64,000 bases of DNA from contig CAYNIC010000011.1 of assembly GCA_964397465.1 (NCBI GenBank), positions 3,503-67,502 on the forward strand. The letters run 5' to 3'. Every line of letters starts with the position of its first letter. Position 1 is the stretch's first letter. A model generated the notes under the pieces. That model was not told the origin of the DNA, searched no databases, and saw nothing but the letters and a program-made list of their open reading frames with translations. Below are positions 37,586 through 57,009 of the stretch, in pieces. The stretch comes from an uncultured Rhodospirillales bacterium. Its GTDB lineage: Bacteria; Pseudomonadota; Alphaproteobacteria; JAWKYA01. The translations under genes and the position numbers were made by a program.

Positions 37586-37594
37586 GGAACCTCC

Positions 37595-40111: not shown

Positions 40112-40603
40112 TTAACGGATCAGGGATATTTGCTGAATGGCGTAGTGGGTTCCGGTGTCCAGCAGGCTGCGGCCGATGGCGTTCGCCGGCGACAAGCGAC
40201 GCTCGCGGTCCAAAATCTTGGCGCGCTGCTGCGTTTGGGCGATTGCGGCGCCGTTGTCGGCGAGGTCAGCATCCCGTTTGGCCAAGGCTTGTTCCGTCGC
40301 GTCGGCATGACGCGATTGCATCGCCTGTTGCAAGGCCGCCGTACTGCCGCCGTCATCATTGATGCCGCGCGCCGCCGCACTGGTGCGGGCGCCGCCCAAC
40401 TCGCGGCGTAACCCAAGGCGCCGGGTCGCTTGATCGGTCTCGAAGTTGTCGGCGATCAGCGAGCGTCGCCGCTGCAAGGACGCCAGTTGCTGCTGGGCAG
40501 CGAGGCTTTGCGCTTTCGCTTCGGCCCGGCGGGCGGGAAGATTCAGCGCCGTTTGGGCTGCTGTGGCGGCAAGCTGTGGAAGTAACGGGGTTGACGCGGC
40601 CAT
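40112..40603 (-). CDS. Ala/Gln-rich coiled-coil virion protein (hypothetical)
   Basis: 163 aa of low-complexity helical sequence. Start/stop junction shared with the upstream gene. Confidence 0.45.
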   Translation of the reverse strand: MAASTPLLPQLAATAAQTALNLPARRAEAKAQSLAAQQQLASLQRRRSLIADNFETDQATRRLGLRRELGGARTSAAARGINDDGGSTAALQQAMQSRHADATEQALAKRDADLADNGAAIAQTQQRAKILDRERRLSPANAIGRSLLDTGTHYAIQQISLIR

Positions 40604-42501: not shown

Positions 42502-42502
42502 C

Positions 42503-43069: not shown

Positions 43070-43152
43070 GGCTCGTTGCCTTTCCCATAAAAAAGCTCCG
43101 CGGCGATGAACCATCGCCGGCGGAGCCGATCACAACAGAGAAAATAGATTTA

Positions 43153-43410
43153 TTAGTCGGTGTTCACGCTGCCGACGGCGGTCATGTCGGCGACATCGAC
43201 CGTGCCGTTCTGGCTGGAAGCGATCAGAAGAATGCCGGCGCCGCCGTTGACATTGGCGAGAATCATATCGCCTTTGCGCAGCATATCTACGGCGGGATTA
43301 AAATAGCCGTTGGTATCGACGATGTCGGCGGTATCGGTCGAGGCATAATGCCAAAGGGTAAAGCCGTTGGCATAGGCCAGCACCGAAAGGTTTCTGGCAA
43401 GATAGGCCAT
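43153..43410 (-). CDS. Small capsid-associated hypothetical protein
   Basis: 85 aa, directly downstream of the capsid gene. Confidence 0.45.
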   Translation of the reverse strand: MAYLARNLSVLAYANGFTLWHYASTDTADIVDTNGYFNPAVDMLRKGDMILANVNGGAGILLIASSQNGTVDVADMTAVGSVNTD

Positions 43411-43448
43411 GAAGATCTCCTTTATCTCTTTAAGCTAAGGGTGAAATT

Positions 43449-44273
43449 TTACGCTTCGCTGCACGGCAGGGTGACAAGACCGGTGCCATCGACCAGCACC
43501 GCGCCCAAGGACAGCGAGCAGCTGACGAACCACGCGGCCCGATCGTTGTGATAGGCGATGTCGGTGTTGACTTCCGATCCCACCGCGAGGGCAAGGGCGG
43601 TCTTGTGCCACCAATGGCACAGGCGGTGACCATTGCCGTCGAGGCCAAGGCCGGAATGGGGCATCCACAAGGTTCCCAGCCAGCGCTTGGCCTGGGTGCC
43701 GCGCCAGGGCAGATCGTCGCTGCCGACATAATCGGCATTGGCGAATTCCTGGATCATCAAGAGATCGGACCATTGTTTCCATCCCACCACGGCGTAACGA
43801 TCTCCGTCATCGGGCACATCGTTGCCGCCCAGGATGCCGAAGGCCTCCAGCACCTTTTGTTTGGTGAGACCGCCGCTAACCGTCGGAGTCAGATTGGCCG
43901 AGGTGTTCATCTGCGCCAAAATCAGCTCGTCGGTTTTGCGGCCCAAGGCATAGGCGCCGGCATTGGCCACCACCGCCCGCTCTTCGTTCTCGGTCTTAAG
44001 TTCGTCCAGGGCGTCCACCCATTCGCCGGCATAGTAATCCGACAGAAAACATTCGATCGGCGCGTGATCGATGTTCATCACCGGCACCTTGCCGTGTCGC
44101 GCTTTGGTCGAAGCGCTGCCCTTGCCGACTTTTTGAAACACGGTGGAGGCGCCTTTAACGCTGCCCTTGGCGCGAACGCAAGGGCGGAGCTTGGCGCCCG
44201 TACGCTGATAGGCTTCGTGAACTTCCTTTTCGAACTGCTTGATGAAAGCAGCATCAATGGAGGGTTTATTCAT
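43449..44273 (-). CDS. Major capsid protein (putative)
   Basis: 274 aa, positioned after the scaffold-like gene. N-terminal FIKQFEKEVHEAYQ... pattern resembles small podovirus coat proteins. Confidence 0.65.
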   Translation of the reverse strand: MNKPSIDAAFIKQFEKEVHEAYQRTGAKLRPCVRAKGSVKGASTVFQKVGKGSASTKARHGKVPVMNIDHAPIECFLSDYYAGEWVDALDELKTENEERAVVANAGAYALGRKTDELILAQMNTSANLTPTVSGGLTKQKVLEAFGILGGNDVPDDGDRYAVVGWKQWSDLLMIQEFANADYVGSDDLPWRGTQAKRWLGTLWMPHSGLGLDGNGHRLCHWWHKTALALAVGSEVNTDIAYHNDRAAWFVSCSLSLGAVLVDGTGLVTLPCSEA

Positions 44274-44394
44274 GGTGATCCTTTCAGAAAAAATAAACGG
44301 TTGAGTCCGGCCACGGGTTATCCGCGCAGGGGCGGGCTTGCAGCCGGATGAAGGAAAAAGACGGGCCGCCGCAACGGTTGTCCGTAATTAAGAC

Positions 44395-45132
44395 TTATGA
44401 ACTGGGGTAAAGACGGCGGAAGCCCTCGCTGACCTCGGCCACAAAGGCGGGGTCTTTGTGCTTCCAATAGCGGGGATCGCGCATCATCTTGGTCAGATCC
44501 TCTTCGGTTAAACTTGCAACCGCGGTGCCGCCACCGCCAAGCCGCGGCGGCGATCCGCTTTGCATCATGGCGTGAAGCGCCAGAACGCCGTCGCTGGTCG
44601 AGGCCAAGGCGTCGAACACGTCGCGCGGCAGGTGGGCCGTGCCCCAGGCGTTGAGTTGCCGGGCGATTTCGCGCCATGCCGTATCGCCGCCGAAATGGGC
44701 GATCAGTCGCTCGCGCTGTTTTTGCGCCTCGAATTCCGACGCCAGATCGGTGATCGCCGGCAGCATGCGTTCGCCGGCGAGATCGTAAACCAGCTGAGCT
44801 TGGCGCGGCGTGAAGTGGGCCGCGTGCAGGCGACCGTTGACATCCGGATCAATGTCCAGAAAATCGGTGCTAAGATTGATCTCGTAAGCATCGGGTGTGT
44901 CGGGGATACCGAGCGCCCGGCGGAAGGCTGCGGTCTCCGTCTCGTCGGCATCATCTCGCGGCACCCGCACCATGGTCGATAGTTTTCGCTCCAGCTCCAA
45001 ATAGGATCGCGCCAGTTTCGCCACATCGGGCGCGCCGGTTTGCGGGTCCAAAAATTTCTGGGGAATTTGCACCGTGTCGGATGAAGGGGCGGCGGGCGTA
45101 TCCGATGGTGTGGTCAGTAAACTCTCGGTCAT
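44395..45132 (-). CDS. Scaffolding-like protein
   Basis: ORF trimmed to the ATG at 45132 after AAGGA, 5 nt below the portal stop. 246 aa, helical and acidic. Sits between the portal and capsid genes. Confidence 0.5.
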   Translation of the reverse strand: MTESLLTTPSDTPAAPSSDTVQIPQKFLDPQTGAPDVAKLARSYLELERKLSTMVRVPRDDADETETAAFRRALGIPDTPDAYEINLSTDFLDIDPDVNGRLHAAHFTPRQAQLVYDLAGERMLPAITDLASEFEAQKQRERLIAHFGGDTAWREIARQLNAWGTAHLPRDVFDALASTSDGVLALHAMMQSGSPPRLGGGGTAVASLTEEDLTKMMRDPRYWKHKDPAFVAEVSEGFRRLYPSS

Positions 45133-45136
45133 GGCA

Positions 45137-46669
45137 TTATCCTTTTGTCGACGAAAGGGTTTGCGCCTCAACAGAGGCAGGTAAAATTTCAGAAGAAATC
45201 GCTGCTGGAACATCGGGACGTAACAGGCTCGCCGGCAGGTCCAGCATCTTGGCGGCCCATCTGGCGGCGGCCGGCGCATCCAAGGTCGCGGCGGCGTCCG
45301 GCCCCAACTGCTTGGCGATGTCCAGCCACGACAAGGCGCCTTGCGCCTCCAACTGGGCTTGCCGCCGCGCCAAGGGCGATCGGTATTGCAAGGTGATGGT
45401 GCGACCATCCAAGGTCAGGTTCGGCAATTCGCCGCGCCGGGATAAAATCGCCAAGGCCCGCGCCACCAACGGCGTCAAAAGTTCGGCCTGCAGCCGGCCG
45501 TAGGTTGCGCCCAATAACCGCGCGGTCTCCGCCGCCCGGTGCAGAACTTCGGTTGCGGTCATGCCCGGCGTCGCCACACTTGCCAGGCGGTCGGTCAGCA
45601 GACTGGAGCGGATCGCTTGCCGTAGGGTGGCAAGAGTCAAATCCGAGACATTGAAATTTCCCGGCACCTGCAAGGGCGTCAGGCCCGATGAGCCGACCGC
45701 CTTGGGAATGATGGTGCCCGGCACCAACCTCACCGTCGCCGGATTTAAAACACCGTCGTCATCGGCCTGCCAAATGCCGGTGACGGCGATGGCGGCGTTT
45801 TTCAGCGTCAACTCAACCACCTTGTTGGCGGTTTTGATATCGGGCAATGCCTTCATCACCGGCGAGCGGCCATAGGCCTCGCCCGGCGCTTTCATCCAGC
45901 GAAACGACAAAAAGGGCGATTGATCCAATCGCGCCTTGGCCAAAAGATGCGGGCCGTTGAATTTCTCCGCACCGCCTTCCAACACCGCGACGTAATCGTA
46001 ACCGTTGCCGGTCTCGCGGGGGACCACCGCTTCGATCACCGTGTAAAGACGATCGCTGTCGGTTGCGGCGGAAGCGGGAATCTCCGCTGCGGGAAAGCGG
46101 CTGTGCAGTTGCAGCCGGCTCAACCGATTGCGACGATAGGCGATATCCAACCTTCCCTCGGCGCCTTCCTCCAACACCACATCCCACAACGGCACGGCGG
46201 CAAAGCGAAAGGCGCTGGGTTGTCCCGGGGCGGTTTCTTCAAAGGACAAACAAGCCGTGCCCGACACCACCAAATCCAGAAAGCATTGATGAATCTCCAC
46301 CGCAAAATTCGAGCGATCGAAATGCTGCTGCAGAATCTCGGCGGCGCGATCGAGTTTCGGCGCCAGGTCGCCGTGCAGGTGTTCGGGAATTTCCCGGCCG
46401 GGGGCAAAGCCGAACCATCTGGCCCAGGGCGGCGTCAGTTCAGCCAGCAAACTGGCCGCCAATTGATCCACCGCATCGGGGGCGGTGCCGTCGAACAACC
46501 GCTCGCGGCTGGCGGCGGATAGACTGGAGGGCCCCGCTCCGGCAAAGGGCGTCTCATCCCGCGACGGCAAACTGTAGGCATAGCAGTCGCGCCACACCGA
46601 CTCCCAGGCGCTGCGCTGCATCTTGGCGCGGTGAAACCGGGCCATCACGCTTTCCGGCGTCATGATCAC
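45137..46669 (-). CDS. Portal (head-to-tail connector) protein
   Basis: 510 aa. N-terminal RFHRAKMQRSAWESVWRDCYAYSLP resembles the T7-type connector family. Position is upstream of the scaffold and capsid genes. Confidence 0.7.
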   Translation of the reverse strand: MIMTPESVMARFHRAKMQRSAWESVWRDCYAYSLPSRDETPFAGAGPSSLSAASRERLFDGTAPDAVDQLAASLLAELTPPWARWFGFAPGREIPEHLHGDLAPKLDRAAEILQQHFDRSNFAVEIHQCFLDLVVSGTACLSFEETAPGQPSAFRFAAVPLWDVVLEEGAEGRLDIAYRRNRLSRLQLHSRFPAAEIPASAATDSDRLYTVIEAVVPRETGNGYDYVAVLEGGAEKFNGPHLLAKARLDQSPFLSFRWMKAPGEAYGRSPVMKALPDIKTANKVVELTLKNAAIAVTGIWQADDDGVLNPATVRLVPGTIIPKAVGSSGLTPLQVPGNFNVSDLTLATLRQAIRSSLLTDRLASVATPGMTATEVLHRAAETARLLGATYGRLQAELLTPLVARALAILSRRGELPNLTLDGRTITLQYRSPLARRQAQLEAQGALSWLDIAKQLGPDAAATLDAPAAARWAAKMLDLPASLLRPDVPAAISSEILPASVEAQTLSSTKG

Positions 46670-46884
46670 TCTCCCAATAAAATTTTGCGGGCGGGGATAA
46701 GGCGCGCCGATTTGCCGGCGGTAATGGCAGGCTGCTCCAGCACGCCGGTCAGTCCGGTTTTGACGGTGGTGGCAAGGCCGCGGCGAATCCGGCGGTGCGG
46801 GTGAAGATCTTCCTTCACCGCGGCGGATAGGGGCGGCGGTGCCGGAACCGGCGGTGGGGTGGGGGCGATAAAGCGGCTGGCCAT
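46666..46884 (-). CDS. Hypothetical Pro-rich 72-aa protein
   Basis: ATG at 46884 after GGGAGA. ATGA overlap with the portal start. Confidence 0.35.
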   Translation of the reverse strand: MASRFIAPTPPPVPAPPPLSAAVKEDLHPHRRIRRGLATTVKTGLTGVLEQPAITAGKSARLIPARKILLGE

Positions 46885-46993
46885 CAAGGATCTCCCTGAA
46901 GCAGGTGGAACGAACGGGACAAAGGGTGGAAAAAACAAAACCCGCCGCGGTTTCCCGGGGCGGGTGAGAAGAGGCGGAGTCATGGCCTCATGT

Positions 46994-47008
46994 GTTCCTA
47001 TATAGTTC
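46994..47008. promoter_or_regulatory. Alphaproteobacterial-type SOS (LexA) box GTTC-N7-GTTC
   Basis: GTTC ctatata GTTC read directly. Overlaps the -10 of the promoter listed next. Confidence 0.65.
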
Positions 47009-47027
47009 TCTTTTCAGTTCCTGTCAA
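46999..47027 (-). promoter_or_regulatory. Near-consensus sigma70-type promoter for the portal-to-holin genes
   Basis: The minus strand reads TTGACA (47027-47022), 17 nt, TATATA (47004-46999). Confidence 0.6.
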
Positions 47028-47109
47028 CGGTATTTTTTCTTAAAAAATGAAAAAGAAGCTGGCCGCCTGTGGGCAAGGTTTCCTTCCGGCTGAATCCCCA
47101 GCGTCTATT

Positions 47110-47562
47110 TCAAGAACGGCTTACCCGACCCGCGGGATTTAAAAGACGTCCCGCGTTCCTGTCCGTCAGGGATAAAAATAACCGCCATGGGGTCCAAATA
47201 AATCGGCGCCGCAGGTGCAAAATATTTTTTACCACGGCAACGCAGGTCATCGGCCGCAGCAGGTTAAGACAAGATCGATGGCGCCGCGGGGTGCGGGTCA
47301 TCGGCATCATCACGGGAATCGGCACCGCACCCTTTGCGGTATAGAATCGAATCATCTCCGCAACGGAGTAGGGAGGAAGGAGTTTGATCATCAGACGGCC
47401 GCACAGGGGATCCACCATGATCCATCCGCTGGCGATTCGATAAAGGATAAAGCAATGGCGGAAGCCTCGTTTCAACAGATAAAACCATGGAAATTCCAGC
47501 TCGCCGCGAAATACCACGATCGCCGTAACCCCGCGGCGCGGACGATCAGAGTCGGCGGTCAT
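47110..47562 (-). CDS. Hypothetical 150-aa protein
   Basis: The 244-aa track ORF is trimmed to the ATG at 47562, which overlaps the upstream stop (ATGA). No family recognised. Confidence 0.45.
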   Translation of the reverse strand: MTADSDRPRRGVTAIVVFRGELEFPWFYLLKRGFRHCFILYRIASGWIMVDPLCGRLMIKLLPPYSVAEMIRFYTAKGAVPIPVMMPMTRTPRRHRSCLNLLRPMTCVAVVKNILHLRRRFIWTPWRLFLSLTDRNAGRLLNPAGRVSRS

Positions 47563-47924
47563 CGGACGATTCCCTTGGCCCGCAGCGGCGGCGTCAAACG
47601 CTCTAACGCTTCGCGCCACAGCTTGGCGAAGTTCGCCTCTTCGCCCCGGGCATAGGGCGACGGAGCGCGGCCCATGCGGCCGTAGTGCATCAGGATTTTG
47701 ACATGAGCCCGGCGCAGGCGCCGTCGCTCGACCAGCCGCACCAGCTCGCGCACCACGTCGTCGGGCTCGCAGGGTTTGGGGGTGGATTTTCCCGCCTCGA
47801 ACCGGGCGCCGTCGGCGCGGGCGGTCAGGCAGGCGACGCACCAAAACCAGCAGGCTAAACTCGTCGGGAAAGGCTCCCCAATCGTTGTTCCCTTGCCGGT
47901 GGTGATAAGCTTCAACTGGCCCAT
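47559..47924 (-). CDS. Hypothetical 121-aa protein, first gene of the cluster (possible regulator)
   Basis: ATG at 47924 after AAGGGAG. Arg-rich helical C-terminal half. Confidence 0.45.
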   Translation of the reverse strand: MGQLKLITTGKGTTIGEPFPTSLACWFWCVACLTARADGARFEAGKSTPKPCEPDDVVRELVRLVERRRLRRAHVKILMHYGRMGRAPSPYARGEEANFAKLWREALERLTPPLRAKGIVR

Positions 47925-47969
47925 GGCTTTGCTCCCTTGAAGGGCTTTTTTCTCTCGCGGTAAACGAGT

Positions 47970-47984
47970 GTTCTATTATTGTTC
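47970..47984. promoter_or_regulatory. Second SOS (LexA) box GTTC-N7-GTTC in the divergent control region
   Basis: GTTC tattatt GTTC read directly. Confidence 0.6.
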
Positions 47985-48084
47985 GCTATTAGAGGGAGAG
48001 TCTATATGCACAAATACCCATGTCAAGCCTGAATCAGAATTTGATCCTAGTGACATTTTTCACCTGAATTGTGAAGGTGTTCCC

Positions 48085-48717
48085 ATGTTGAGACATGCGG
48101 ATATATGGCGGGGGATTGACCGTTTGGCTGCGACACATAATTTGTCGCCCTCGGGCTTGGCTCGAAAGTCAGGATTGGATCCCACCACCTTTAACAAATC
48201 AAAACGGGTTGCCCGGGATGGCAAGCCGCGTTGGCCGACGACGGAAAGCCTGGCGAAGATTCTGTCGGCCACCGGCGCCGGCATGAACGAATTCGTCTCA
48301 TTGATGAGCGAGACTCCCGGCACCTCGGTAACCCAGCGGATCCCGGTCATCGGCTATACCCAAGCGGGTCAGGCCGGTTACTTCGACGACGCCGGTTATC
48401 CCGCGGGCAAGGGCTGGGACGAGGTGGAGTTCCCCGATGTCGGCGATCCTCACGTTTATGCGCTGGAGATCAACGGCGACAGCATGATGCCGGTTTATCG
48501 CGACGGCGACGTGGTTGTGGTCTCGCCCCAGGCGCAGATCCGCCGCAACGACCGGGTGGTGCTGAAGACCGTCGAGGGCGAGGTGATGGCCAAGGTGCTC
48601 AGCCGCCGGTCGGCCAAGAAGATCGATCTGCATTCGCTCAACACCGATTTCCCCGATCGCAGCCTGGACAGCGACGACGTGCTGTGGATCGCGCGGATTA
48701 TCTGGGCCAGCCAATAG
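48085..48717 (+). CDS. HTH + S24 peptidase (CI/LexA-like self-cleaving) repressor
   Basis: ORF trimmed to the ATG at 48085 after GAAGGTG. N-terminal HTH (LSPSGLARKSGLDPTTFNKSKR), an Ala-Gly linker, and GDSMMP...K catalytic dyad. Confidence 0.8.
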   Translation: MLRHADIWRGIDRLAATHNLSPSGLARKSGLDPTTFNKSKRVARDGKPRWPTTESLAKILSATGAGMNEFVSLMSETPGTSVTQRIPVIGYTQAGQAGYFDDAGYPAGKGWDEVEFPDVGDPHVYALEINGDSMMPVYRDGDVVVVSPQAQIRRNDRVVLKTVEGEVMAKVLSRRSAKKIDLHSLNTDFPDRSLDSDDVLWIARIIWASQ

Positions 48718-48731
48718 TCTTAGCGCCGATT

Positions 48732-48952: not shown

Positions 48953-49813
48953 ATGGCGAAGAGTCTAAGTAACGAGGATAATTGTCAGACCTTCGTCGAT
49001 GGCCGGTGGATCGCGGGCAATCCGCCGCTGATGCATGCTATGACCCATGCGGTGTGGTTGGGATCGGTGGTGTTCGACGGCGCGCGGGCCTTCGACGGCG
49101 TGGCGCCCGATCTTGATCTTCATTGCCATCGGGTCGTCAATTCGGCATCGGTGTTGGGCTTGGCGCCGACCCTGACCGCGACGGCGATCGAAGATCTGGC
49201 GCGGGACGGCATCAAAAGATTTGCGCCGAACACCCCGCTCTATATCCGGCCGATGTTCTTTGCCGAGGACGGGATGCTGGCGCCCGATCCCGCCACCACC
49301 AAATTCGCCCTGGTGATGTGGGAGGATCCCTTGCCGGCGCCGACCGGATTTTCCGCAATTGTCACACCGATGCGGCGCCCGCCGCCCGAAGCGGCGCCTT
49401 CGGAAGCCAAAGCGTCTTGTCATTATCCCAATCTGGGTCGCGCGGTGCGCTGGGCAAAGGAACGCGGCTTTGACAACGGCGTGGTATTGGATCCCGCCGG
49501 CAAGATCGCCGAATTCGCTTCATCGAATATTTTCTTCGTGCAGGACGGGGTGGTGGTGACGCCGGCGGCCAACGGCACTTTCCTGAATGGCGTCACGCGG
49601 CGCCGCGTGTTATCGCTGTTGCGCGCTGATGGCGTGAAGGTTGAGGAACGGGTAGTTGACCCGTCAGAGCTTGATCGCGCGTCCGAAGTTTTCTCCACCG
49701 GCAACTATGCCAAGGTCATGCCGGTGACGCGGATGAACGATCGCAGCCTGCAGCCGGGACCGCTGTTCCGCCGCGCCCGCGAGCTCTATTGGGGTTATGC
49801 ACATGGGAAGTAA
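48953..49813 (+). CDS. ilvE: Class IV aminotransferase (branched-chain amino acid aminotransferase-like)
   Basis: 286 aa. Fold-type IV pattern including the EAKASCHYPNLGRAVRWAKERGFDNGVVLD region. Confidence 0.7.
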   Translation: MAKSLSNEDNCQTFVDGRWIAGNPPLMHAMTHAVWLGSVVFDGARAFDGVAPDLDLHCHRVVNSASVLGLAPTLTATAIEDLARDGIKRFAPNTPLYIRPMFFAEDGMLAPDPATTKFALVMWEDPLPAPTGFSAIVTPMRRPPPEAAPSEAKASCHYPNLGRAVRWAKERGFDNGVVLDPAGKIAEFASSNIFFVQDGVVVTPAANGTFLNGVTRRRVLSLLRADGVKVEERVVDPSELDRASEVFSTGNYAKVMPVTRMNDRSLQPGPLFRRARELYWGYAHGK

Positions 49814-49829
49814 CGTATGAGAGGGAGTT

Positions 49830-50627
49830 ATGCCTTACGTACAGCGAGATAAAAAAGGAATTGTAACAGGGTTATTTGAACATAAATTACCAGAGGCTAC
49901 TATGGAATTTCTGGAAAAAGACGATCCGGAAATTAAAGACTTTTATGATCGATTTCCACTATCGCCTCAGATGATAGAGGCGCTTCGCCCTAAATCTACA
50001 AAAGAGTTACTCGAACAGCATCAAAAAATTGAAAAAGAATATAATCAACTTATAGAAGACCATAAAGCACTTCAAAATCTCATTATATCTTTATTAGGTG
50101 TATGGGCGGAAATGGAGACTAGCTTTGCTGGCTTACTAAATGTTCTTTTAACAGGAAGTAGAGAAAAATTGGCGTTTGCACTTTACTTTTCTATTCGAAA
50201 TTTTCAAACGCAAATGACGGTAATTCAAACACTTGGTGAAGTGCTTTTTCCTTCCGAAGAAAATTCAAAAAAAGTGTATAAAGAATGGGAGTCAGTTTTT
50301 AATAAAATTAAAAAGGAAGTACCTGAAATTCGAAACAGAATCGCTCACGGGCATATAGTCCAGTTCTTGCACGAGAAGAAACATATACGTGTTTTGCCGC
50401 CATTTTTTGATTTCATTAAAATAGAAAAAAGCAACGCAAAAGCTGAATTACCTGGAGTTGGACAAAACGAAATATACAAAAGTATAAAGGTAATAGGCCT
50501 AACTTCTCAGTTTGCCAATCGCTTGTCGCTTATTTTTAAGCGTTCTTTTGAAGGCGAGGCATTAGCACTTAAAGAAATTGATTTGGAGCTCAAAAGTTAT
50601 AAGGAAAATTTCAAAAATTTAAGATAA
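49830..50627 (+). CDS. Hypothetical protein with HEPN-like Rx4H motif
   Basis: 265 aa, strongly AT-rich and all-helical. The motif EIRNRIAHG sits at the end of a helical-bundle-like region. Start lies 17 nt after the ilvE-like stop, with RBS GAGGGAG. Confidence 0.5.
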   Translation: MPYVQRDKKGIVTGLFEHKLPEATMEFLEKDDPEIKDFYDRFPLSPQMIEALRPKSTKELLEQHQKIEKEYNQLIEDHKALQNLIISLLGVWAEMETSFAGLLNVLLTGSREKLAFALYFSIRNFQTQMTVIQTLGEVLFPSEENSKKVYKEWESVFNKIKKEVPEIRNRIAHGHIVQFLHEKKHIRVLPPFFDFIKIEKSNAKAELPGVGQNEIYKSIKVIGLTSQFANRLSLIFKRSFEGEALALKEIDLELKSYKENFKNLR

Positions 50628-50765: not shown

Positions 50766-51779
50766 ATGACGCTAAATTATCTCGAACTGATTATCGGCAG
50801 TCTGTGCTTAATCATCATCGGCTTCTGCGCCGGTGTTGTTATCCATGCCGGCGAGATCATTCCCTATCAGCCGCTGATCGTCGGTTTGATCGCGCTGGGC
50901 GGCGCGGTGATCGCCTATGTCGGAACGCTGAGGGCATCCCACGCCCATCTGCAGGTCGCCGAGAAGAACATCAAGCATCAGCAAGAGCAGAAGGCGCTGG
51001 ACTCTATCAACGAGAAACAGGAAATCGCGTCCTTTGCGCAAAAGCTGCTGCTGGAAATATTCAATTATCTGGTGGCGACAAGCCTTCTTTCCCGGGACCA
51101 GGCCATCGATGAAAAATGGCTCAACCTCTTGACCCTGAAAGACATGATAGAGCGATATGTCACCAGGATGGAGGACGCCTCGGATAAATTCATGAAACTG
51201 GACATTAACAACTCCAGCCGAATTCATCTGATCATTCGCGGCTTGAAAAACATCCTGCCCGAGGCGGAGACGATCCAAAATATAAATCAGCTGATGAAAA
51301 CCGGCGACAATGGCGCGATCTGCGCCCAGTATATCAACCGCACCTATGAATATATCGGGACATTCTTGAACGAGAACGTTACGGTACATGACATCCTTAA
51401 CGACTTGGATGTCATCTCCAAGGGCAATGTGGATCAATCAAGGGCGTATTCGATCTTGACGACGGATCTGAGAAAAATCATCAACGAGAATCTGAGGCTT
51501 ATTCAATCCGCCGTCACCGCGGGCCGCTATCTCGAGATCGATTATCCGCCGGGGCGCCGGGTGGTGGCGCCGCATATTTTGGGGCGCACCAGCAGTGGCG
51601 AGCTGGTGCTCAGCGTCTATCAAGTCAACGGCGCCAGTGATGCTGGCGAGACGGTGGGGTGGAAGACTTTCCATCTCGATCGCATTTTGGGCGTAAGGGT
51701 GTTGGATAAACGCTTTTCACCGCAGGGCGATTACAATCCCCACGATCCGAAAATACCCGAAGTTATCGTCAAGGTATAA
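50766..51779 (+). CDS. Two-TM membrane protein with C-terminal WYL-like domain
   Basis: ATG at 50766. TM helices LELIIGSLCLIIIGFCAGVVI and PLIVGLIALGGAVIAYVGTL. C-terminus YLEIDYPPGRRVVAPHILGR...LVLSVYQ...WKTFHLDRILGVRVLDKRF fits the WYL pattern. Confidence 0.55.
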   Translation: MTLNYLELIIGSLCLIIIGFCAGVVIHAGEIIPYQPLIVGLIALGGAVIAYVGTLRASHAHLQVAEKNIKHQQEQKALDSINEKQEIASFAQKLLLEIFNYLVATSLLSRDQAIDEKWLNLLTLKDMIERYVTRMEDASDKFMKLDINNSSRIHLIIRGLKNILPEAETIQNINQLMKTGDNGAICAQYINRTYEYIGTFLNENVTVHDILNDLDVISKGNVDQSRAYSILTTDLRKIINENLRLIQSAVTAGRYLEIDYPPGRRVVAPHILGRTSSGELVLSVYQVNGASDAGETVGWKTFHLDRILGVRVLDKRFSPQGDYNPHDPKIPEVIVKV

Positions 51780-51903: not shown

Positions 51904-52623
51904 TTAATTTGTCGTTTGAAAGCCACGAATCGCCCAGAGTATTGACCATCCAAATATAAAGATAATCGTTGGGGGAATGATAAACATACCCAGGATAAAT
52001 AATAAACTTTTGTCAGCTATAGATCGATATTCTTTGGCATGGTTTTTTGCGGCATCAATTTTGTCTAACCGGCTTACTTTAGATTTGTAGATTTCTGCAG
52101 GGTTACGGCCGCAAGGAAGATCTATGATCTGTCTTGATTTTTCTGCCAGATTCTTATTCAGAATATTTCTAGCATCTTGAATAGATAATGACCTAAAATC
52201 AACAATAGTAACCCAAGCTTCTCGTTTAAAAGCTTCCACTATAGCTTCCAGCTGTTCATCAGATAATTTTTCAAAGTCAAACTTAGTTTGGGATGACGGA
52301 TTTTGTTTCTCCGTTTGTCGTTCTGGTGGGGGAAAATTTGATTCTTGTATTTGATTAAGATCTATCCAGCCGTTCTCCATAAAATAGAAGATAGGCTCAG
52401 TGCGGCATTTAGTTCTATAATACTTTCCTACTTCCGGTTCAGGCAGAGAGTCTGTCTCTGATTGTAGAAAAGATATTTCGCGATCTGCTTCTGCAGAACG
52501 CCTTATATTATTAGTATATTCCGATTTCAATTCGGTTAATACCAGCCAAGCTACCAGCGAAACCCATATTGCACTAATTATCAGCCATAAACGAAAAAGC
52601 CCTCTTCCAAATCTAGACATCAT
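51904..52623 (-). CDS. Hypothetical membrane protein with N- and C-terminal TM helices
   Basis: 239 aa, AT-rich. Third gene of a translationally coupled trio. Confidence 0.5.
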   Translation of the reverse strand: MMSRFGRGLFRLWLIISAIWVSLVAWLVLTELKSEYTNNIRRSAEADREISFLQSETDSLPEPEVGKYYRTKCRTEPIFYFMENGWIDLNQIQESNFPPPERQTEKQNPSSQTKFDFEKLSDEQLEAIVEAFKREAWVTIVDFRSLSIQDARNILNKNLAEKSRQIIDLPCGRNPAEIYKSKVSRLDKIDAAKNHAKEYRSIADKSLLFILGMFIIPPTIIFIFGWSILWAIRGFQTTN

Positions 52624-52813
52624 ACTTTAGGCACTCTTCTGCAGAAGCAACTTCAGATTTTAATTTTGAATAATCTATATTTTCACCCCAAGGTTTATCG
52701 TCTCGAGCGTTCTTTAAGGCGTCGCTGCAAAGATCTTTATTGCTCAAATTCGTAAATGGATATGAATAGAATTTTGGTGGGTAGTCTGGAATAGTAACTT
52801 TCACACATTTCAT
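52613..52813 (-). CDS. Hypothetical 66-aa protein
   Basis: Overlaps both neighbours (ATGA with the upstream gene, 11 nt with the downstream gene). Confidence 0.4.
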   Translation of the reverse strand: MKCVKVTIPDYPPKFYSYPFTNLSNKDLCSDALKNARDDKPWGENIDYSKLKSEVASAEECLKYDV

Positions 52814-53046
52814 TGTTTGATCTTTCCATTATTTTTTATAATTTGGTTGGGATCGAATCCCTCCGCCACAAGAAGTGAGCTAAGTTGTTCACCAAAACTT
52901 TTACTGTCTTCATATGCGAAGAGAGGCTTTTGAGTCTTATCAGATACAGATATATAAACGCGCCCTTGACCCGCATGCTCAAAATCAAAGTTGTAGCCAA
53001 GGTCATGGAGCGCAATGAGCATTCTGGCGTTGTTTGTATTGCTCAT
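52810..53046 (-). CDS. Hypothetical 78-aa protein
   Basis: First gene of the trio. Preceded by a very AT-rich ~125-bp leader/promoter region. Confidence 0.45.
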   Translation of the reverse strand: MSNTNNARMLIALHDLGYNFDFEHAGQGRVYISVSDKTQKPLFAYEDSKSFGEQLSSLLVAEGFDPNQIIKNNGKIKQ

Positions 53047-53803: not shown

Positions 53804-54181
53804 TTACGAGCCGACAATCACCACCACATAGCCGTCGGGATCACGCAGCCAGCACTCATGGTGGCCGGCATTGGGGTTAAAGCGGCGTTCCTCGATGATC
53901 TCGATCTTCAATCCCTTGGCGCGTTTGATCACCGCATCGATAGCGTCGGTGTGAAACCACAACAAAACGCCATAGCCGTGGGGCGCCGCATCGGGATCGC
54001 CCAAATTGGGATGATCGTGATCACCCCAATGATGGAGCTGCAGGATCATCTCGCCGGTTGCCGGATCGATCAGTTGTTCGTACTCATCCCCGCCATGACC
54101 GCTGATGCAGCCGAGAAGTTTTTGATACCAGCGGCTGCTGGCGGGAACGTCTTTGACGGCGATCAGTGGTTGCGGTTTCAT
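53804..54181 (-). CDS. VOC (glyoxalase/bleomycin-resistance) family protein
   Basis: 125 aa with a typical beta-alpha-beta-beta-beta module pattern (VKDVPASSRWYQKLLG...WLRDPDGYVVVI). ATGA overlap with the helicase gene. Confidence 0.8.
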   Translation of the reverse strand: MKPQPLIAVKDVPASSRWYQKLLGCISGHGGDEYEQLIDPATGEMILQLHHWGDHDHPNLGDPDAAPHGYGVLLWFHTDAIDAVIKRAKGLKIEIIEERRFNPNAGHHECWLRDPDGYVVVIVGS

Positions 54182-57009
54182 GTCTTGTCCTCGATCGATG
54201 ATGTCTCATGTGGCGCTCGCTCGTGCACAAAAAATTCCCGCACGGCGGTGACCGCCTCGGCCAACCCAAGCCGCGAGATCGCAACGCCTTCGGGAAAGGC
54301 GGTGGTAAGGCGGCTGGGCAGCCGTGAATCAAGCAACACAAACACACCGCGATCGGTGGTGCGGCGGATCAACCGCCCGAAGGCTTGGCGCAGTCGCAGC
54401 CGGGTCAGCATATCGGCATAGGCCGCCTTGCCGCCGGGAAAAACCTCGGCCCGCGCCTTGTACAAAATATCCGGCCGCGGCCACGGCACCCGGTCGAACA
54501 CCACCAGACGCAAGGAACGCCCCGGTACATCGACGCCGTCGCGCACCGCATCGGTCCCGAGTAGACAGGCGTCTTCCTCGGCACGGAAAATATCGATCAA
54601 GGTGGCGGTGTCGACGCCGTCGACGTGTTGCGCGTAGAGGGGAATATTTGCTGCCTCCAACGGCGCTGCGATCCGCGCTTGTACCTCGCGCAGTCGGCTG
54701 ATGGCGGTGAACAGGCCAAGCCCGCCGCCGTGGGAGGCTTCGAACAGGGCGCGATAGGCCGCCGCCATCTGTCCCGGATCCTTGCCATCGATGTTTTTCA
54801 CGATCAGCACCCGGGTTTGACGGGGATAATCAAAGGGTGAGGGCACGCGAACCAGCAAGGCCGGCCTGGCGAGATGCCGCGTGCCGGTACGCGCCTCGGC
54901 GGCGATCCAATCTTCATCAACGCGGCCGGTGCGATCGGCCAAGGTCGCCGAGGTAATCACCCCGCCATGGACGCCGGCTTCGATCGCCTGGGCGAAGGGC
55001 TGCATCGGATCGCGCCAATGACGGTAAAGACCGATGTCGATGTCGCGGCCCTCGATCCGGTCGACCGCGCACCAATCGACGAACTCGGGCGGCGTTTCGC
55101 TGCGCAGACTTTTGAGCATCGATCGCCAGGCGGCGATGGGGGCAAGGGCTCGGTGGCTAAGCCCGCGCACCACCGCTTCGATGCGGATGCGGGTCGCGAC
55201 GTCGATCTCGCCGGCCTCGCTGCCGGTCAGCCGCGCGGCGATGGCGGTGCGAAGCTGGGTCAAAGGTTCCTCCAACCGCGCCAAGGCAAGATCAAGCGCC
55301 GTCGCCGCCTCCAGCAGGCCGTCAACCGGATCGGTGGTGGGCGCTTCGAGGCCATAAGGACCATCCCGATCGGCGACCCGGGCGTAAACCTGGGTGCGAA
55401 TATGCGCCAGGAATACTTCGGTCGGTCCGCGCGGTGCATCGTCGGCCAGGCGTTTGATCCACCCGTCACCGGGAAGCGCGCGGGCGGAGTCCAGCGCATT
55501 GCTCAACGCCACCTCCGCCGCGGTATTGCCGGCGGCAAGATCTTCGGCGCGGCGCTTCAAGCCGCGGGCACGGCCCCGTCCACCCTCGGCACCCAACAAC
55601 CAGCGGCGAAGTTCGGCGGCTTCGATTCCGGAGAGCGCGGCCGAGAAGGCGCTATCGGCGGCATCAAACAAATGATGACCTTCATCGAACACGATCCGTG
55701 TCGGCAATTGACCGTCTTCGCCGCGCGTCGCACTGATCAAGGTGAGGGCATGGTTCGCCACCACCAGTTTCGCCCGGGCGGCCCTGCGGATGGTGCGCTC
55801 GATGAAACACTTATTATAGTGCGGGCAGGCGGCGTGGATGCATTCGCCGCGTCGATCGGCCAGGCTAAGGCTGCGCCGTGTTCCCAAGAGATGCACCAAC
55901 CATCCGGGAAAATCACCGCCGATCAAATCACCGTTGCGCGTCGCGCCGGCCCAGCGGGTGATAAGACCCAAAGCCACCGCATCGGAGACGCGGCCGCCGG
56001 GTCCAAGCGAGATCAATCCGCGCACCGCCTCTTCCAAATTCAGCAGGCACAGATAATTCTCTCGGCCCTTGCGCACCACGGCGCGCAAGGATTTTTCCAC
56101 CGGATCGGGGTAAAGCCGATCAAGCTCGCTATCCAATTGGTGTTGCAGGTTGCGGGTAAAGGTCGACAGCCACACTGTGCCGTCGTTCTTCTCCGCCCAC
56201 AGACTGGCGGGGGCGATATAGCCCAAGGTCTTGCCGACACCGGTGCCGGCTTCGGCCAGGATCACCGTCGGTGCCGCCAGGGCCGGCGGCGGTTGAAACG
56301 CGGCGCTTAACGCTGCGGCGTAGTCGGCTTGCGGCGCACGCACCTCCGCATCCTTGCCCAGCAGCTCGGCCAGGCGCCGCGTGGCCTCGATCGGGGAAAC
56401 ACCGATCTGTCCGGGCGGCGGGGGCGGTTCGTGCTCGGCGATCTCGGGCAGACGGCGCCATACTTCAAATCCGGAGACATGTCCCGACGGTGCTGCATCG
56501 GCGGGTGAAGATTTCACCCGGCCGTGATCCAGCGCTTGAAGGACCCAGGGTCCCCAACTCCACCCGCCGCGCTCCATGGCGGCGGCAAGATCGATCATGT
56601 CGCGCCGCTCGGCAAAGGAGTGAGTTTGCGCCAATTCGGTTAAGAGCAGGCGCGTAATCTCGATCAAGCTTAAGGCTTCGCGTGCAGGCGTCGACGGCGG
56701 CGGCTGCTTCATCGCCATGGCCAATCCCCGCGGTGTCGACAAGGCGAAGTTGGCGGGACGCACGAAGGCGAAGAGTTCCAAAACATCAAGCGCGGGAAAA
56801 CTGTCGATCCCCAACCGCCGGGCTGTCGCCAGGCGGTGGCATAGAATGGGGACGAGGCCGGCATCAACTCTTAATGCGGCGTCGCCATGGCTGAGGGCTT
56901 CGATCGTTCCGTCGGAAGATAACAGCACGGCATCCCGCGCCGAGGCCACCAAGACAGGTGCATCGGGCAAAGATATATCAGGGGAAGGGACGTGGTCTGG
57001 CGCGCGCAT
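54178..57009 (-). CDS. DinG/XPD-family ATP-dependent DNA helicase with N-terminal extension
   Basis: AEAGTGVGKTLGY Walker A, Fe-S Cys cluster (C..HAACPHYNKC), FDEGHHL DEAH-type box, and C-terminal helicase motifs; 943 aa. Confidence 0.85.
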   Translation of the reverse strand: MRAPDHVPSPDISLPDAPVLVASARDAVLLSSDGTIEALSHGDAALRVDAGLVPILCHRLATARRLGIDSFPALDVLELFAFVRPANFALSTPRGLAMAMKQPPPSTPAREALSLIEITRLLLTELAQTHSFAERRDMIDLAAAMERGGWSWGPWVLQALDHGRVKSSPADAAPSGHVSGFEVWRRLPEIAEHEPPPPPGQIGVSPIEATRRLAELLGKDAEVRAPQADYAAALSAAFQPPPALAAPTVILAEAGTGVGKTLGYIAPASLWAEKNDGTVWLSTFTRNLQHQLDSELDRLYPDPVEKSLRAVVRKGRENYLCLLNLEEAVRGLISLGPGGRVSDAVALGLITRWAGATRNGDLIGGDFPGWLVHLLGTRRSLSLADRRGECIHAACPHYNKCFIERTIRRAARAKLVVANHALTLISATRGEDGQLPTRIVFDEGHHLFDAADSAFSAALSGIEAAELRRWLLGAEGGRGRARGLKRRAEDLAAGNTAAEVALSNALDSARALPGDGWIKRLADDAPRGPTEVFLAHIRTQVYARVADRDGPYGLEAPTTDPVDGLLEAATALDLALARLEEPLTQLRTAIAARLTGSEAGEIDVATRIRIEAVVRGLSHRALAPIAAWRSMLKSLRSETPPEFVDWCAVDRIEGRDIDIGLYRHWRDPMQPFAQAIEAGVHGGVITSATLADRTGRVDEDWIAAEARTGTRHLARPALLVRVPSPFDYPRQTRVLIVKNIDGKDPGQMAAAYRALFEASHGGGLGLFTAISRLREVQARIAAPLEAANIPLYAQHVDGVDTATLIDIFRAEEDACLLGTDAVRDGVDVPGRSLRLVVFDRVPWPRPDILYKARAEVFPGGKAAYADMLTRLRLRQAFGRLIRRTTDRGVFVLLDSRLPSRLTTAFPEGVAISRLGLAEAVTAVREFFVHERAPHETSSIEDKT

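What the first reader, a model, noticed from the sequence alone, without database searches (positions are those of the whole stretch)
49830..50627. Orphan AT-rich gene with an Rx4H (HEPN-type) motif inserted 17 nt behind a core aminotransferase gene
Seen: GC content collapses immediately after the aminotransferase stop codon. A 265-aa all-helical ORF starts 17 nt later with its own RBS (GAGGGAG) and no room for a promoter. It contains EIRNRIAHG, that is R-x4-H at the junction of predicted helices, preceded by long amphipathic helices (LISLLGVWAEMETSFAGLLNVLL, KLAFALYFSIRNFQTQMTVIQTLGEVLF). Established: Rx4-6H is the catalytic signature of HEPN RNases, which occur in Abi systems, toxin-antitoxin modules and Cas13. 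Inference: this is a HEPN-like RNase effector acquired horizontally and possibly expressed by read-through from the core gene. A six-residue motif alone is weak evidence.
Basis: partly seen in the sequence, partly recalled or inferred. Interest (0 to 1): 0.5.

Follow-up and report, generated by a model that had tools for sequence, protein, structure and literature searches.

The report
Solo HEPN-like nuclease with phage-chaperone-type module
The AT-rich gene behind the aminotransferase is a real, horizontally acquired member of an uncatalogued family of stand-alone HEPN-type (predicted RNA-cutting) toxins, and its short N-terminal domain is one otherwise found on phage tail-fibre chaperone-position proteins, which suggests (unproven) how it might sense phage.

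Summary
A 265-aa ORF (49830..50627, GC 0.34) starts 16 nt after the stop of a GC-0.61 branched-chain aminotransferase gene.

It is not an orphan. An exhaustive HMMER search found 201 cluster representatives. Among 139 aligned relatives (about 25% identical), R168 and H173 are the only invariant residues.

The HEPN reading is supported:
- The motif is RNxxAHG.
- A confident AlphaFold model places it at the end of helix 3.
- E96 is a conserved acidic residue upstream.
- Weak profile hits all fall on HEPN families.

The gene is solo. In nine independent contexts no neighbour recurs, and the WYL link is not conserved. Relatives sit in prophages, in IS/toxin-antitoxin islands, or inside housekeeping operons.

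New here: residues 1-46 form a module that also heads small phage proteins lying directly after tail-fibre genes (C-terminal Phage_tail_APC or DUF4376). The window's own prophage encodes such a fibre. The same module also occurs next to type I secretion genes, so the idea that it senses tail fibres remains a hypothesis.

The parts
48953..49813 (+). Upstream branched-chain (class IV) aminotransferase gene with host-like GC. It is the probable source of read-through transcription.
   Evidence: Pfam Aminotran_4 1.1e-45. NCBIfam PRK13356 1.4e-120, 401.7 bits against a cutoff of 262. GC about 0.61.
49819..49827 (+). Shine-Dalgarno-like GAGAGGGAG within the 16-nt spacer between the aminotransferase stop (49811-49813) and the ATG at 49830.
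   Evidence: Read directly from the sequence. No promoter-like or terminator-like site in the junction.
49830..50627 (+). The 265-aa ORF: an N-terminal module, a HEPN-like core and C-terminal helices. GC 0.342.
   Evidence: 201 relatives. AlphaFold2 model pLDDT 92.7, pTM 0.80. Identical protein on 4 contigs from 3 samples.
49830..49967 (+). N-terminal module (residues 1-46: MPYVQRDKKGIVTGLF...EFLEKDDPEIKDF), modelled as three short strands and two short helices. It is shared with phage tail-assembly-chaperone-position proteins and with T1SS-adjacent mini-proteins.
   Evidence: Present in 43/139 relatives. Alignments A2 and A6. Stand-alone homologues. The window copy is diverged: its bias-free score is only 7.1 bits, while P0002 scores 37.7 and P0018 scores 51.7.
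50067..50549 (+). HEPN-like helical core (residues 80-240): H1 (to residue 106), H2 (112-139, kinked), H3 (144-172), a hairpin and short-helix insert, then H4 (212-240).
50115..50117 (+). E96, the conserved upstream acidic residue.
   Evidence: E in 138/139 relatives. HEPN families typically have a conserved acidic residue upstream of the motif (PMC3710099).
50211..50213 (+). Q128, a position that is Arg in 135/139 relatives. The window protein is the only member with Gln.
   Evidence: The functional consequence is unknown.
50331..50351 (+). Predicted catalytic motif R168-N-R-I-A-H173-G174 (Rx4H with a polar residue after the R), at the C-terminal end of helix 3.
   Evidence: R and H invariant; N 134/139, A 115/139, G 127/139. 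Kept in 6 of 6 intact metagenome fusions. Its position in the model matches the HEPN definition.
50352..50396 (+). Beta-hairpin (residues 175-189) inserted directly after the motif. It carries the near-invariant R187.
   Evidence: A hairpin in this position is described for Csx1-type HEPN domains (PMC3710099).
50766..51779 (+). Downstream neighbour: a membrane-anchored protein with a C-terminal WYL domain. It is not a conserved partner of the family.
   Evidence: PADLOC WYL 4.3e-07; Pfam WYL 0.016, below cutoff. Gene call in L001. No WYL gene next to any relative.
37595..40087 (-). Tail-fibre gene of the resident prophage-like block. Its C-terminal ~240 residues are homologous to the fibre domain that in other phages is directly followed by a stand-alone N-module gene. 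It is a candidate (hypothetical) ligand class for the ORF's N-module.
   Evidence: 19 viral fibre ORFs match window 38311-37601 (E 1e-5 to 1e-12), and the L100 fibre N-terminus matches 40039-39488 (6e-13). Pfam CBM_5_12, weak Collar.

Best explanation
ORF 49830..50627 encodes a stand-alone toxin-type nuclease of the HEPN superfamily. It belongs to a family that no curated library yet describes.

Shown or directly predicted:
- A four-helix HEPN-like core presents an invariant R-N-x-x-A-H-G motif at the end of helix 3.
- There is a conserved Glu upstream (E96) and a beta-hairpin insert after the motif.
- The gene is foreign to its host (GC 0.34 against 0.60).
- It has no conserved partner gene.
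- It sits 16 nt behind a co-oriented host gene, with its own ribosome-binding site and no terminator in between.

Inferred by analogy with characterised HEPN enzymes (KEN/RNase L, PrrC, RnlA, Csm6, HepS):
- The His acts as general base and the Arg/Asn stabilise the transition state in metal-independent RNA cleavage.
- The active site is formed across a dimer.
- The protein is made constitutively at a low level by read-through from the aminotransferase gene.
- It is held in an inactive oligomer until a phage-derived trigger switches it on, stopping translation and aborting infection.

More speculative: the 46-residue N-terminal module is the trigger-binding part. In phages this module heads small proteins encoded directly after tail-fibre genes. 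It might recognise a tail-fibre-type protein made late in infection. The neighbouring prophage-like element encodes a fibre of the matching class.
For: Family and motif:
- 201 relatives.
- R168 and H173 are the only invariant columns in 139 sequences at about 25% identity. N169 134/139, G174 127/139, E96 138/139.
- The motif is kept in 6 of 6 intact new metagenome members.

Fold:
- Models with pLDDT 92.7 and 92.6.
- The motif lies at the end of H144-172, as the HEPN definition requires (PMC3710099).

Sequence:
- Sub-threshold hits concentrate on HEPN families and always cover the motif. RiboL-PSP is hit by 13 members, MAE_28990 by 3, plus Abi_C, DUF4145, Csx1_HEPN and Cthe2314.
- The best PDB sequence match is a CRISPR-associated protein, aligned RNkvAHG to RNSVAHG.
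- UniRef names one relative 'Abi-like protein'.

Solo and mobile:
- Contexts include a P22-like prophage moron position, an IS plus PemK island, an integrase/ParA neighbourhood, insertion between plsC and miaB in Microvirga, and insertion inside the rib operon on 24 or more contigs.
- No shared neighbour ORF across 9 contexts.
- GC is below the flanks in most contexts.
- Both ends of the window's prophage-like block carry low-GC defence-type genes. PDC-S33 lies at the left end (2.9e-104).

Precedent:
- HepS is a solo prophage HEPN protein, activated by a tail-tip protein, that cuts tRNA (PMC13043305).

N-module:
- 27 of 28 viral-contig hits are 69-172-aa proteins without a HEPN core.
- They lie -1 to +13 nt after mutually homologous tail-fibre genes.
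- Their C-terminal domains are Phage_tail_APC or DUF4376, and the upstream ORF is Phage_tail_fib plus Collar.
- A viral-only profile that avoids the search-pattern bias hits 33 HEPN-fused proteins at E<0.01.
- In Tfa-type chaperones the N-terminal domain binds the fibre (PMC9608196).
- The window's prophage fibre carries the matching C-terminal domain.
Against: - No curated HEPN model reaches its gathering score. The best is 20 bits against a cutoff of 28.4.
- The usual Ex3[KR] form of the acidic motif is absent.
- The window protein has Gln where 135/139 relatives have Arg (position 128), so this copy could be impaired.
- No RNase, toxicity or defence data exist for any member.
- No PADLOC or PHROG family matches, and there is no hit in 50,697 phage or 72,556 plasmid records.
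- The sensor idea is weakened because an N-module variant also heads about 40 small proteins next to HlyB/HlyD type I secretion genes, not phage genes.
- The window protein's own module scores only 7.1 bits on the unbiased stretch, while shuffles reach 7.6.
- Other family loci show no fibre gene nearby.
- 96 of 139 family members lack the module altogether.
Confidence: 0.6

Rival explanations
1. The ORF is the toxin of a two-gene module whose partner is the downstream membrane-anchored WYL protein, acting as regulator, antitoxin or sensor. The pair would work together as a defence or toxin-antitoxin system.
For: The WYL-domain gene follows on the same strand, 138 nt (ATG start) or 114 nt (TTG start) downstream. 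WYL domains are ligand-sensing regulators in CRISPR-associated and Abi systems (PADLOC WYL 4.3e-07, AbiEii-WYL 3.9e-05). The pair is kept on the three same-species contigs.
Against: None of nine independent family contexts has a WYL gene or any shared neighbour. The two genes differ in GC (0.34 against about 0.50), which suggests separate origins. The WYL protein lacks the usual HTH and instead has transmembrane helices.
Confidence: 0.1
2. The protein has a HEPN-like fold but is not a conflict toxin. It would be an accessory RNA-processing or RNA-binding factor, or a catalytically weakened copy (Q128 instead of the family's Arg) drifting toward loss.
For: Relatives are embedded, co-oriented, in RNA-related housekeeping clusters (miaB-phoH-ybeY; ribE/ribBA-ribH-nusB). 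Q128 is unique in the family. A frameshifted relative exists in L099, so members do decay.
Against: Distribution is sporadic, GC is foreign, and the genomic position differs in every lineage. That pattern is typical of accessory conflict genes, not housekeeping factors. The window copy keeps the ORF full length and retains R168, N169, H173, G174, E96, W153, R187 and G209.
Confidence: 0.12
3. The protein is not HEPN at all. It would be an unrelated helical protein whose conserved Arg/His pair serves another purpose such as ligand or metal binding, or a role linked to its chaperone-type N-module (for example a fibre-assembly accessory of the neighbouring prophage).
Against: The exact RNxxAH(G) signature with polar N, its location at the end of helix 3, the upstream invariant Glu, and the repeated convergence of weak hits on at least seven different HEPN models and ten HEPN structures are hard to explain by chance. 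Most family members (96/139) have no N-module and are not near fibre genes.
Confidence: 0.1

Closest known systems
HepS (Gifsy-1 prophage solo HEPN abortive-infection protein; PMC13043305, PDB 9oik)
   Different: There is no detectable sequence relationship. Profile searches of PDB sequences at E<=10 did not list HepS. This family has a beta-hairpin after the motif, two extra C-terminal helices and, in a third of members, the N-terminal module. Oligomeric state, trigger and substrate are unknown here.
Lactococcal Abi HEPN proteins (AbiA C-terminal domain, AbiD/AbiF, AbiU2, AbiJ) and the RiboL-PSP-HEPN / MAE_28990 families of Anantharaman et al. 2013 (PMC3710099)
   Different: All matches are below the curated thresholds and cover only helix 3 plus the motif. 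No reverse transcriptase, L-PSP, ParB or R-M neighbours are present.
Phage tail-fibre assembly / tail assembly chaperone proteins (Pfam Phage_tail_APC, DUF4376; Mu Tfa, Pam3 gp25; PMC9608196)
   Same: Residues 1-46 belong to the same small domain that forms the N-terminus of 69-172-aa phage proteins encoded immediately after tail-fibre genes. In characterised Tfa proteins the N-terminal domain binds the fibre.
   Different: Here the module is fused to a nuclease, not to a trimerising chaperone tail. It is far shorter than the Mu Tfa N-domain. It was not shown to be homologous to Mu Tfa or gp25 themselves. A variant also occurs in T1SS-adjacent mini-proteins.
HEPN-MNT type II toxin-antitoxin pairs (e.g. 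SO_3166/SO_3165, TTHA0636, PDB 8xdj)
   Different: No adjacent nucleotidyltransferase antitoxin in the window or in any other context. The protein is twice as long and has extra elements.

Membership tests
HEPN superfamily (Anantharaman et al. 2013) | Conserved Rx4-6H motif | tested here: met
   R168 and H173 are invariant in 139 relatives, in the 55-sequence core alignment, and in 6 of 6 intact new members.
HEPN superfamily (Anantharaman et al. 2013) | Polar residue (N, D or H) immediately after the conserved Arg | tested here: met
   N169 in 134/139; the other residues seen include H (2) and D (2).
HEPN superfamily (Anantharaman et al. 2013) | [quoted passage not shown] | tested here: met
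   In the predicted models (pLDDT about 93) the motif closes helix 144-172, followed by a hairpin and then H212-240. Definition. These are predicted structures, not experimental ones.
HEPN superfamily (Anantharaman et al. 2013) | Structural similarity to solved HEPN domains | tested here: inconclusive
HEPN superfamily (Anantharaman et al. 2013) | Second conserved acidic residue upstream, typically Ex3[KR] | tested here: inconclusive
   E96 is conserved in 138/139, but it is not followed by K/R at +4. Its proximity to the motif could not be measured.
HEPN superfamily (Anantharaman et al. 2013) | Significant profile match to a curated HEPN family model | tested here: not met
   The best hits are RiboL-PSP at 20.1 bits (cutoff 28.4), MAE_28990 at 18 bits (26.8) and Csx1_HEPN at 16 bits (23). 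All are below threshold. PADLOC Csx1 0.005, RTasHEPN 0.033.
HEPN superfamily (Anantharaman et al. 2013) | Metal-independent RNase activity dependent on the motif His/Arg, with the active site formed across a dimer | not testable with these tools
   Needs biochemistry or multimer modelling.
HepS family | Detectable sequence homology to HepS | tested here: not met
   Profile searches of PDB sequences at E<=10 list no HepS chain, although 9oik is in the structure library. The LT2 Gifsy-1 record lacks the gene, so no direct alignment was possible.
HepS family | Solo gene without partner, frequently prophage-borne | tested here: met
   No shared neighbour in 9 contexts. Prophage or mobile contexts. 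Other members sit in housekeeping operons.
HEPN-MNT toxin-antitoxin | Adjacent minimal nucleotidyltransferase antitoxin | tested here: not met
   No NTase domain in neighbouring genes of the window or in the precomputed Pfam lists of the other loci.
WYL-regulated defence module | Conserved co-occurrence of the effector with a WYL-domain gene | tested here: not met
   WYL is adjacent only in the window's own species and absent from all other contexts.
Phage tail assembly chaperone-position proteins sharing the N-module | N-terminal MPYVQRDxxGxIxG...EFLPDDxPEVxAF domain | tested here: met
   Met for the family: the viral-only profile of residues 11-48 hits 33 HEPN-fused members at E<0.01, up to 51.7 bits. 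For the window protein alone the unbiased score is 7.1 bits (not significant). Its membership follows from full-length homology to P0002 (2.8e-36), which scores 37.7 bits.
Phage tail assembly chaperone-position proteins sharing the N-module | Encoded immediately downstream of a tail-fibre gene, with a chaperone-type C-terminal domain | tested here: not met
   The ORF follows an aminotransferase gene, its C-terminal part is the HEPN-like core, and no fibre homology lies upstream of the HEPN-fused genes (0 of 4). It shares a domain with these proteins but is not a chaperone-family member.

The most novel reading that the evidence does not exclude
The family represents a defence nuclease that has captured the N-terminal, fibre-facing domain of phage tail-fibre assembly chaperones as a built-in sensor. 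When an infecting or induced phage makes tail fibres of the matching class, the module engages them and releases the HEPN RNase, aborting infection. The resident prophage-like element 10 kb away carries a fibre of this class but lacks its own module-bearing chaperone. That raises the possibility of a self/non-self arrangement like the one between HepS and the Gifsy phages. Members without the module, and the insertion of solo copies into essential operons, would represent other regulatory solutions in the same family.
Probability: 0.2. Interest if true: 0.8.

Novelty: new variant of a known kind. Interest (0 to 1): 0.58.

Why it matters
Solo HEPN proteins are emerging as self-contained sense-and-kill phage defences, with HepS (2026) as the first worked example. 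How they recognise infection is known for very few. This work does three things:
1. It defines an uncurated family of at least 200 sequence clusters that annotation pipelines currently call 'hypothetical'.
2. It shows that members repeatedly settle as single genes inside housekeeping operons. This is an unusual way for a potential toxin to obtain constitutive expression.
3. It links a third of the family to a small domain otherwise used by phage proteins encoded next to tail-fibre genes. That gives a concrete, testable hypothesis for the trigger.

If the hypothesis holds, it would be an example of a host immune protein built from a captured phage assembly-factor domain. If it fails, the family is still a useful addition to HEPN and defence catalogues.

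Tried and rejected
- Word-indexed homology searches found almost nothing. The single protein returned only itself, and the 139-sequence profile returned 3 proteins. The exhaustive search was needed.
I replaced it with a hand-made degenerate DNA pattern.
- The afdb50 fold library was unavailable.
- tblastn of the protein and of the family consensus against phage and plasmid records found no match.
- Rfam found nothing in the island.
- Synteny or 'empty site' analysis through 80 aminotransferase loci failed. The best locus is 60% identical and shares no neighbours.
- I tried to obtain the HepS sequence from the Gifsy-1 LT2 record, but the gene is not there.
- The 76-aa ORF in chaperone position after the prophage fibre starts with MPYI. 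It was tested as a diverged N-module and rejected (0.4 bits; shuffles reach 7.3).
- An inverted 21-nt match between the ORF's RBS/start (49821-49841) and 53486-53506 (I3) was judged to be at chance level for a 5.7-kb region.
- The two long ORFs carrying the pattern in metagenomes (L185, L211) were chance hits, not new fusions.
Full report
**1. Observation**

The ORF 49830..50627 (+) encodes 265 aa and starts with ATG. The upstream gene is a class IV branched-chain aminotransferase (Pfam 1.1e-45; NCBIfam PRK13356 1.4e-120). It ends with TAA at 49811-49813.

The spacer is 16 nt and holds an SD-like GAGAGGGAG. A consensus scan finds neither a terminator nor a promoter in the junction.

GC drops from about 0.61 to 0.32-0.35. 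The gene has GC 0.342 and GC3 0.271, against 0.597 upstream. The motif EIRNRIAHG is at residues 166-174.

By composition, one Rx4H is expected 0.29 times in such a protein.

**2. Not an orphan**

The fast word-indexed search returned only the protein itself. The exhaustive HMMER scan of 1.84 billion representatives returned 201 proteins at E<=1e-3 and 59 at E<=1e-10. The best is P0002 at 35% identity, E 2.8e-36.

The family has two architectures. Full-length proteins run about 255-285 aa. Core-only proteins run about 195-235 aa and start near residue 66-75 of the window protein. Of 139 aligned members, 43 carry the N-terminal extension.

**3. The motif is the family's hallmark**

In the 139-sequence alignment (about 25% identity to the query), the only invariant columns are R168 and H173. 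Other strongly conserved positions:
- N169: 134/139
- A172: 115/139
- G174: 127/139
- E96: 138/139
- W153: 135/139
- R187: 130/139
- G209: 138/139

These counts come, and hold in the trimmed core alignment. Position 128 is Arg in 135/139 members but Gln in the window protein. This is a unique deviation of unknown consequence.

**4. Fold**

AlphaFold2 with the family alignment gives a confident model (pLDDT 92.7, pTM 0.80). Its elements, in order:
- three short strands (3-6, 12-16, 25-27)
- two short helices
- a very long helix, 57-106
- helices 112-121 and 125-139
- helix 144-172
- a hairpin, 175-189
- helix 195-203
- helices 212-240 and 245-264

The motif closes helix 144-172.

Anantharaman et al. 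(PMC3710099) define HEPN by these features:
- a four-helix up-down bundle that tolerates inserts
- a polar residue after the Arg
- usually an upstream acidic residue

They also describe a hairpin right after the motif in Csx1. The model fits all of these, except that E96 is not in an Ex3[KR] context.

Fold searches gave mixed results:

This is enrichment, not proof.

**5. Sequence-level links**

No library assigns the protein or its relatives to a family:
- Pfam, NCBIfam, PADLOC and PHROGs for the window protein.
- All 139 members against Pfam.
- Ten members examined in detail.

The sub-threshold hits are nevertheless one-sided. The families hit are RiboL-PSP-HEPN (13 members), DUF6548 (10), MAE_28990 HEPN (3), Abi_C, DUF4145, Csx1_HEPN and Cthe_2314 HEPN. 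Every hit covers helix 3 plus the motif. PADLOC gives Csx1 and CARF-HEPN.

After trimming, the best PDB sequence match is a CRISPR-associated protein aligned ktRNkvaHG to GWRNSVAHG (E 0.25). UniRef labels the Microvirga terricola member 'Abi-like protein'.

I conclude that this is an uncurated family on the edge of the HEPN superfamily. I put about 0.8 on the fold and active-site assignment.

**6. Genomic behaviour**

The identical protein occurs on four contigs from three samples, always behind the aminotransferase gene.

Relatives occupy unrelated places:
- a lone, oppositely oriented gene between HNH/IS1595 and the late-regulator region of a P22-like prophage
- next to a P22-type phage gene
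- an island with an IS element and a PemK toxin-antitoxin pair
- beside an integrase fragment and ParA
- wedged, co-oriented, between plsC-like and miaB-phoH-ybeY-corC-lnt genes in Microvirga
- between ribE and ribBA inside the riboflavin operon, on at least 24 contigs

Core-only members likewise show no recurring neighbour.

An all-against-all comparison of every ORF of 35 aa or more within 1.5 kb of the family gene, across nine contexts, found no shared neighbour. There is therefore no conserved antitoxin or partner, and in particular no WYL gene. The family gene usually has lower GC than its flanks.

In the window the ORF opens a 4-kb low-GC islet (49814 to about 53800). The islet also holds the membrane-anchored WYL protein and an AT-rich three-gene cassette. 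The islet lies just outside the right end of a 16-kb prophage-like block, whose left end carries another low-GC candidate defence gene (PADLOC PDC-S33, 2.9e-104).

Eighty loci encoding related aminotransferases in other alphaproteobacteria carry none of these genes. The closest is only 60% identical, so no empty site could be shown.

**7. The N-terminal module**

Residues 1-46 (consensus MPYVQRDxxGxIxG..PQ....EFLPDDxPEVxAF) are conserved among the full-length members.

A profile of this module found 39 proteins, all 53-97 aa. They are of two kinds:
- Some are broken family genes. For example, P0168 in L099 has the rest of the HEPN gene in another frame.
- Others are true stand-alone proteins. 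P0181 overlaps the stop codon of a 503-aa phage tail/tail-fibre protein (PHROG tail protein 6.4e-21), and its locus has no HEPN core.

A degenerate DNA pattern for M-P-[FY]-V-Q-R-[DN]-x-x-G found 28 viral contigs. Results from these contigs:
- 27 encode module proteins of 69-172 aa without a HEPN core.
- All but one of those with an intact upstream gene lie -1 to +13 nt after a 288-970-aa ORF.
- These upstream ORFs share a homologous C-terminal region of about 250 residues.
- Pfam identifies one upstream ORF as Phage_tail_fib (159.7 bits) plus Collar.
- The small proteins' C-terminal halves are Phage_tail_APC (30.8 bits against a cutoff of 26.6) or DUF4376 (66-68 bits).

To avoid circularity from my own pattern, I built a profile from viral residues 11-48 only. 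It hits 33 HEPN-fused proteins at E<0.01, up to 51.7 bits. P0002 scores 37.7 bits. The window protein itself scores only 7.1 bits, which is not significant alone. Its module is therefore a diverged copy, assigned by transitivity.

In characterised Tfa-type chaperones the N-terminal domain binds the distal fibre (PMC9608196).

The window's prophage-like block encodes an 830-aa fibre (37595..40087, minus strand). Its C-terminal ~240 residues match 19 of these viral fibres (E down to 1e-12). Yet the only module in the whole window is the one fused to HEPN. The 76-aa ORF in chaperone position after that fibre begins with MPYI but is not a module.

**8. A caution on the sensor idea**

They break down as follows:
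- Seven are HEPN fusions. The six intact ones all keep RNxxAH[GS].
- Nineteen are viral-type stand-alone proteins. Ten of the 15 with enough upstream DNA have fibre homology upstream. None of 4 HEPN fusions does.
- About 40 form a third class with a module variant and a different conserved tail. These lie between an IspH-like gene and an HlyB-type ABC transporter (9e-102 to HlyB), an HlyD-like gene and giant repeat adhesins. That is a type I secretion locus, not a phage.

No fusion to any other effector was seen.

The module is therefore a small adaptor found beside genes for fibrous or secreted proteins and, separately, on HEPN nucleases. Its ligand is unknown, and 96 of 139 family members do without it.

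**9. Most likely mechanism**

Shown:
- a foreign, intact, solo gene
- an invariant HEPN-type motif in the right structural place
- translational signals, and no terminator after the upstream gene

Inferred from established HEPN biochemistry:
- metal-independent RNA cleavage, with H173 as general base and R168/N169 stabilising the transition state
- an active site formed across a dimer

Inferred by analogy with HepS:
- constitutive expression of a latent oligomer that a phage protein activates, causing abortive infection

Speculative:
- the N-module provides the trigger interface, possibly for tail-fibre-class proteins

My confidences:
- HEPN nuclease fold and site: about 0.8
- conflict or defence toxin role: about 0.55
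- fibre-sensing module: about 0.2

**10. Comparison, novelty and verdict**

The protein works most like HepS and the lactococcal Abi HEPN proteins. It fails the membership tests for any curated HEPN family, for HepS by sequence, for HEPN-MNT pairs (no MNT neighbour) and for a WYL-coupled system.

It is best described as a new variant of a known kind. It belongs to an undescribed solo HEPN family. Part of that family carries a domain shared with phage tail-chaperone-position proteins, and members often lodge inside housekeeping operons.

The 'orphan' label and the WYL lead are not.

Noticed in passing
window 32386..33750 (-): A low-GC (about 0.45) gene with a RelA/SpoT domain lies at the left end of the prophage-like block. 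It matches the PADLOC candidate defence family PDC-S33 (E 2.9e-104; Pfam RelA_SpoT 5.8e-20). Both ends of the block therefore carry AT-rich defence-type cargo.
   Followed up: partly
window 51788-51890 and 53160-53260: A direct repeat of about 95 nt (about 80% identical, only two copies in the window, no Rfam match) brackets an AT-rich three-gene minus-strand cassette (51904..53046: a 239-aa membrane protein, a 66-aa and a 78-aa protein, none with any family hit). It looks like a cassette inserted or exchanged between repeats.
   Followed up: partly
window 50674-50695 vs 51534-51555: A 19-22-nt near-exact copy (18/19) of the WYL-domain coding sequence (EIDYPPG) lies in the intergenic DNA just after the ORF. 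It may be a recombination scar, but it is too short to interpret.
   Followed up: partly
window 50766..51779 (+): The downstream WYL protein has an unusual architecture. It has N-terminal transmembrane helices and a helical middle instead of the usual HTH, with the WYL domain at the C-terminus (PADLOC WYL 4.3e-07; also matches the WYL part of an AbiEii model, 3.9e-05).
   Followed up: no
window ~33700..48720: The prophage-like block holds only T7-like late genes plus an S24 repressor. The late genes are portal, scaffold, capsid, nozzle, fibre, a terminase-like 497-aa ORF and a GTA-type 3TM holin. No replication genes or integrase were seen. It could be a defective prophage or a GTA-like element.
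   Followed up: partly
window 37355..37585 (-): A 76-aa ORF lies 9 nt after the prophage fibre gene, in the chaperone position. It begins MPYI like the N-module but has no further similarity (0.4 bits; shuffles reach 7.3).
   Followed up: yes
window 50211-50213 (residue 128 of the ORF): The window protein has Gln where 135 of 139 relatives have Arg, and it is the only Gln in the family. It might weaken or retune the enzyme.
   Followed up: partly
L089 7001-7825 (Microvirga terricola); L090-L092 (>=24 contigs): Family members are inserted as single co-oriented genes inside highly conserved housekeeping clusters (plsC | miaB-phoH-ybeY-corC-lnt, and ribD-ribE | ribBA-ribH-nusB). Their GC is 9-12 points below the flanks, and no mobility gene is nearby.
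   Followed up: partly
L099 5001-5812: A family gene is split by a frameshift. The N-module is called as a 91-aa protein (P0168), and the remaining HEPN part lies in another frame (62% identical to P0016). This is either a pseudogene or a sequencing error.
   Followed up: yes
L129-L248 (about 40 loci, e.g. L130 5183.., L131, L137): These are small 103-121-aa proteins with an N-module variant and a conserved tail ...D.D[LF]IRVIEDVID.LI.K...TDLP..AQ.KL..RK. They sit between an IspH-like gene and an HlyB/HlyD type I secretion pair, often near giant repeat adhesins. Their function is unknown.
   Followed up: partly
window 54178..57009 (-): A 943-aa DinG-like helicase scores 2.5e-87 against PADLOC's type IV CRISPR DinG (Csf4) model. 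No other CRISPR type IV genes were noticed nearby, so it is probably a housekeeping DinG-family helicase.
   Followed up: no
alignment A1 (four members): A few HEPN-family members carry different N-terminal extensions (MYIAIVDYDQDNRVTKYQDY..., or M..IFAVFD..G...GFY..DI...IP.NA..I....). From memory the second resembles tail-fibre-assembly N-termini. This was not tested.
   Followed up: no
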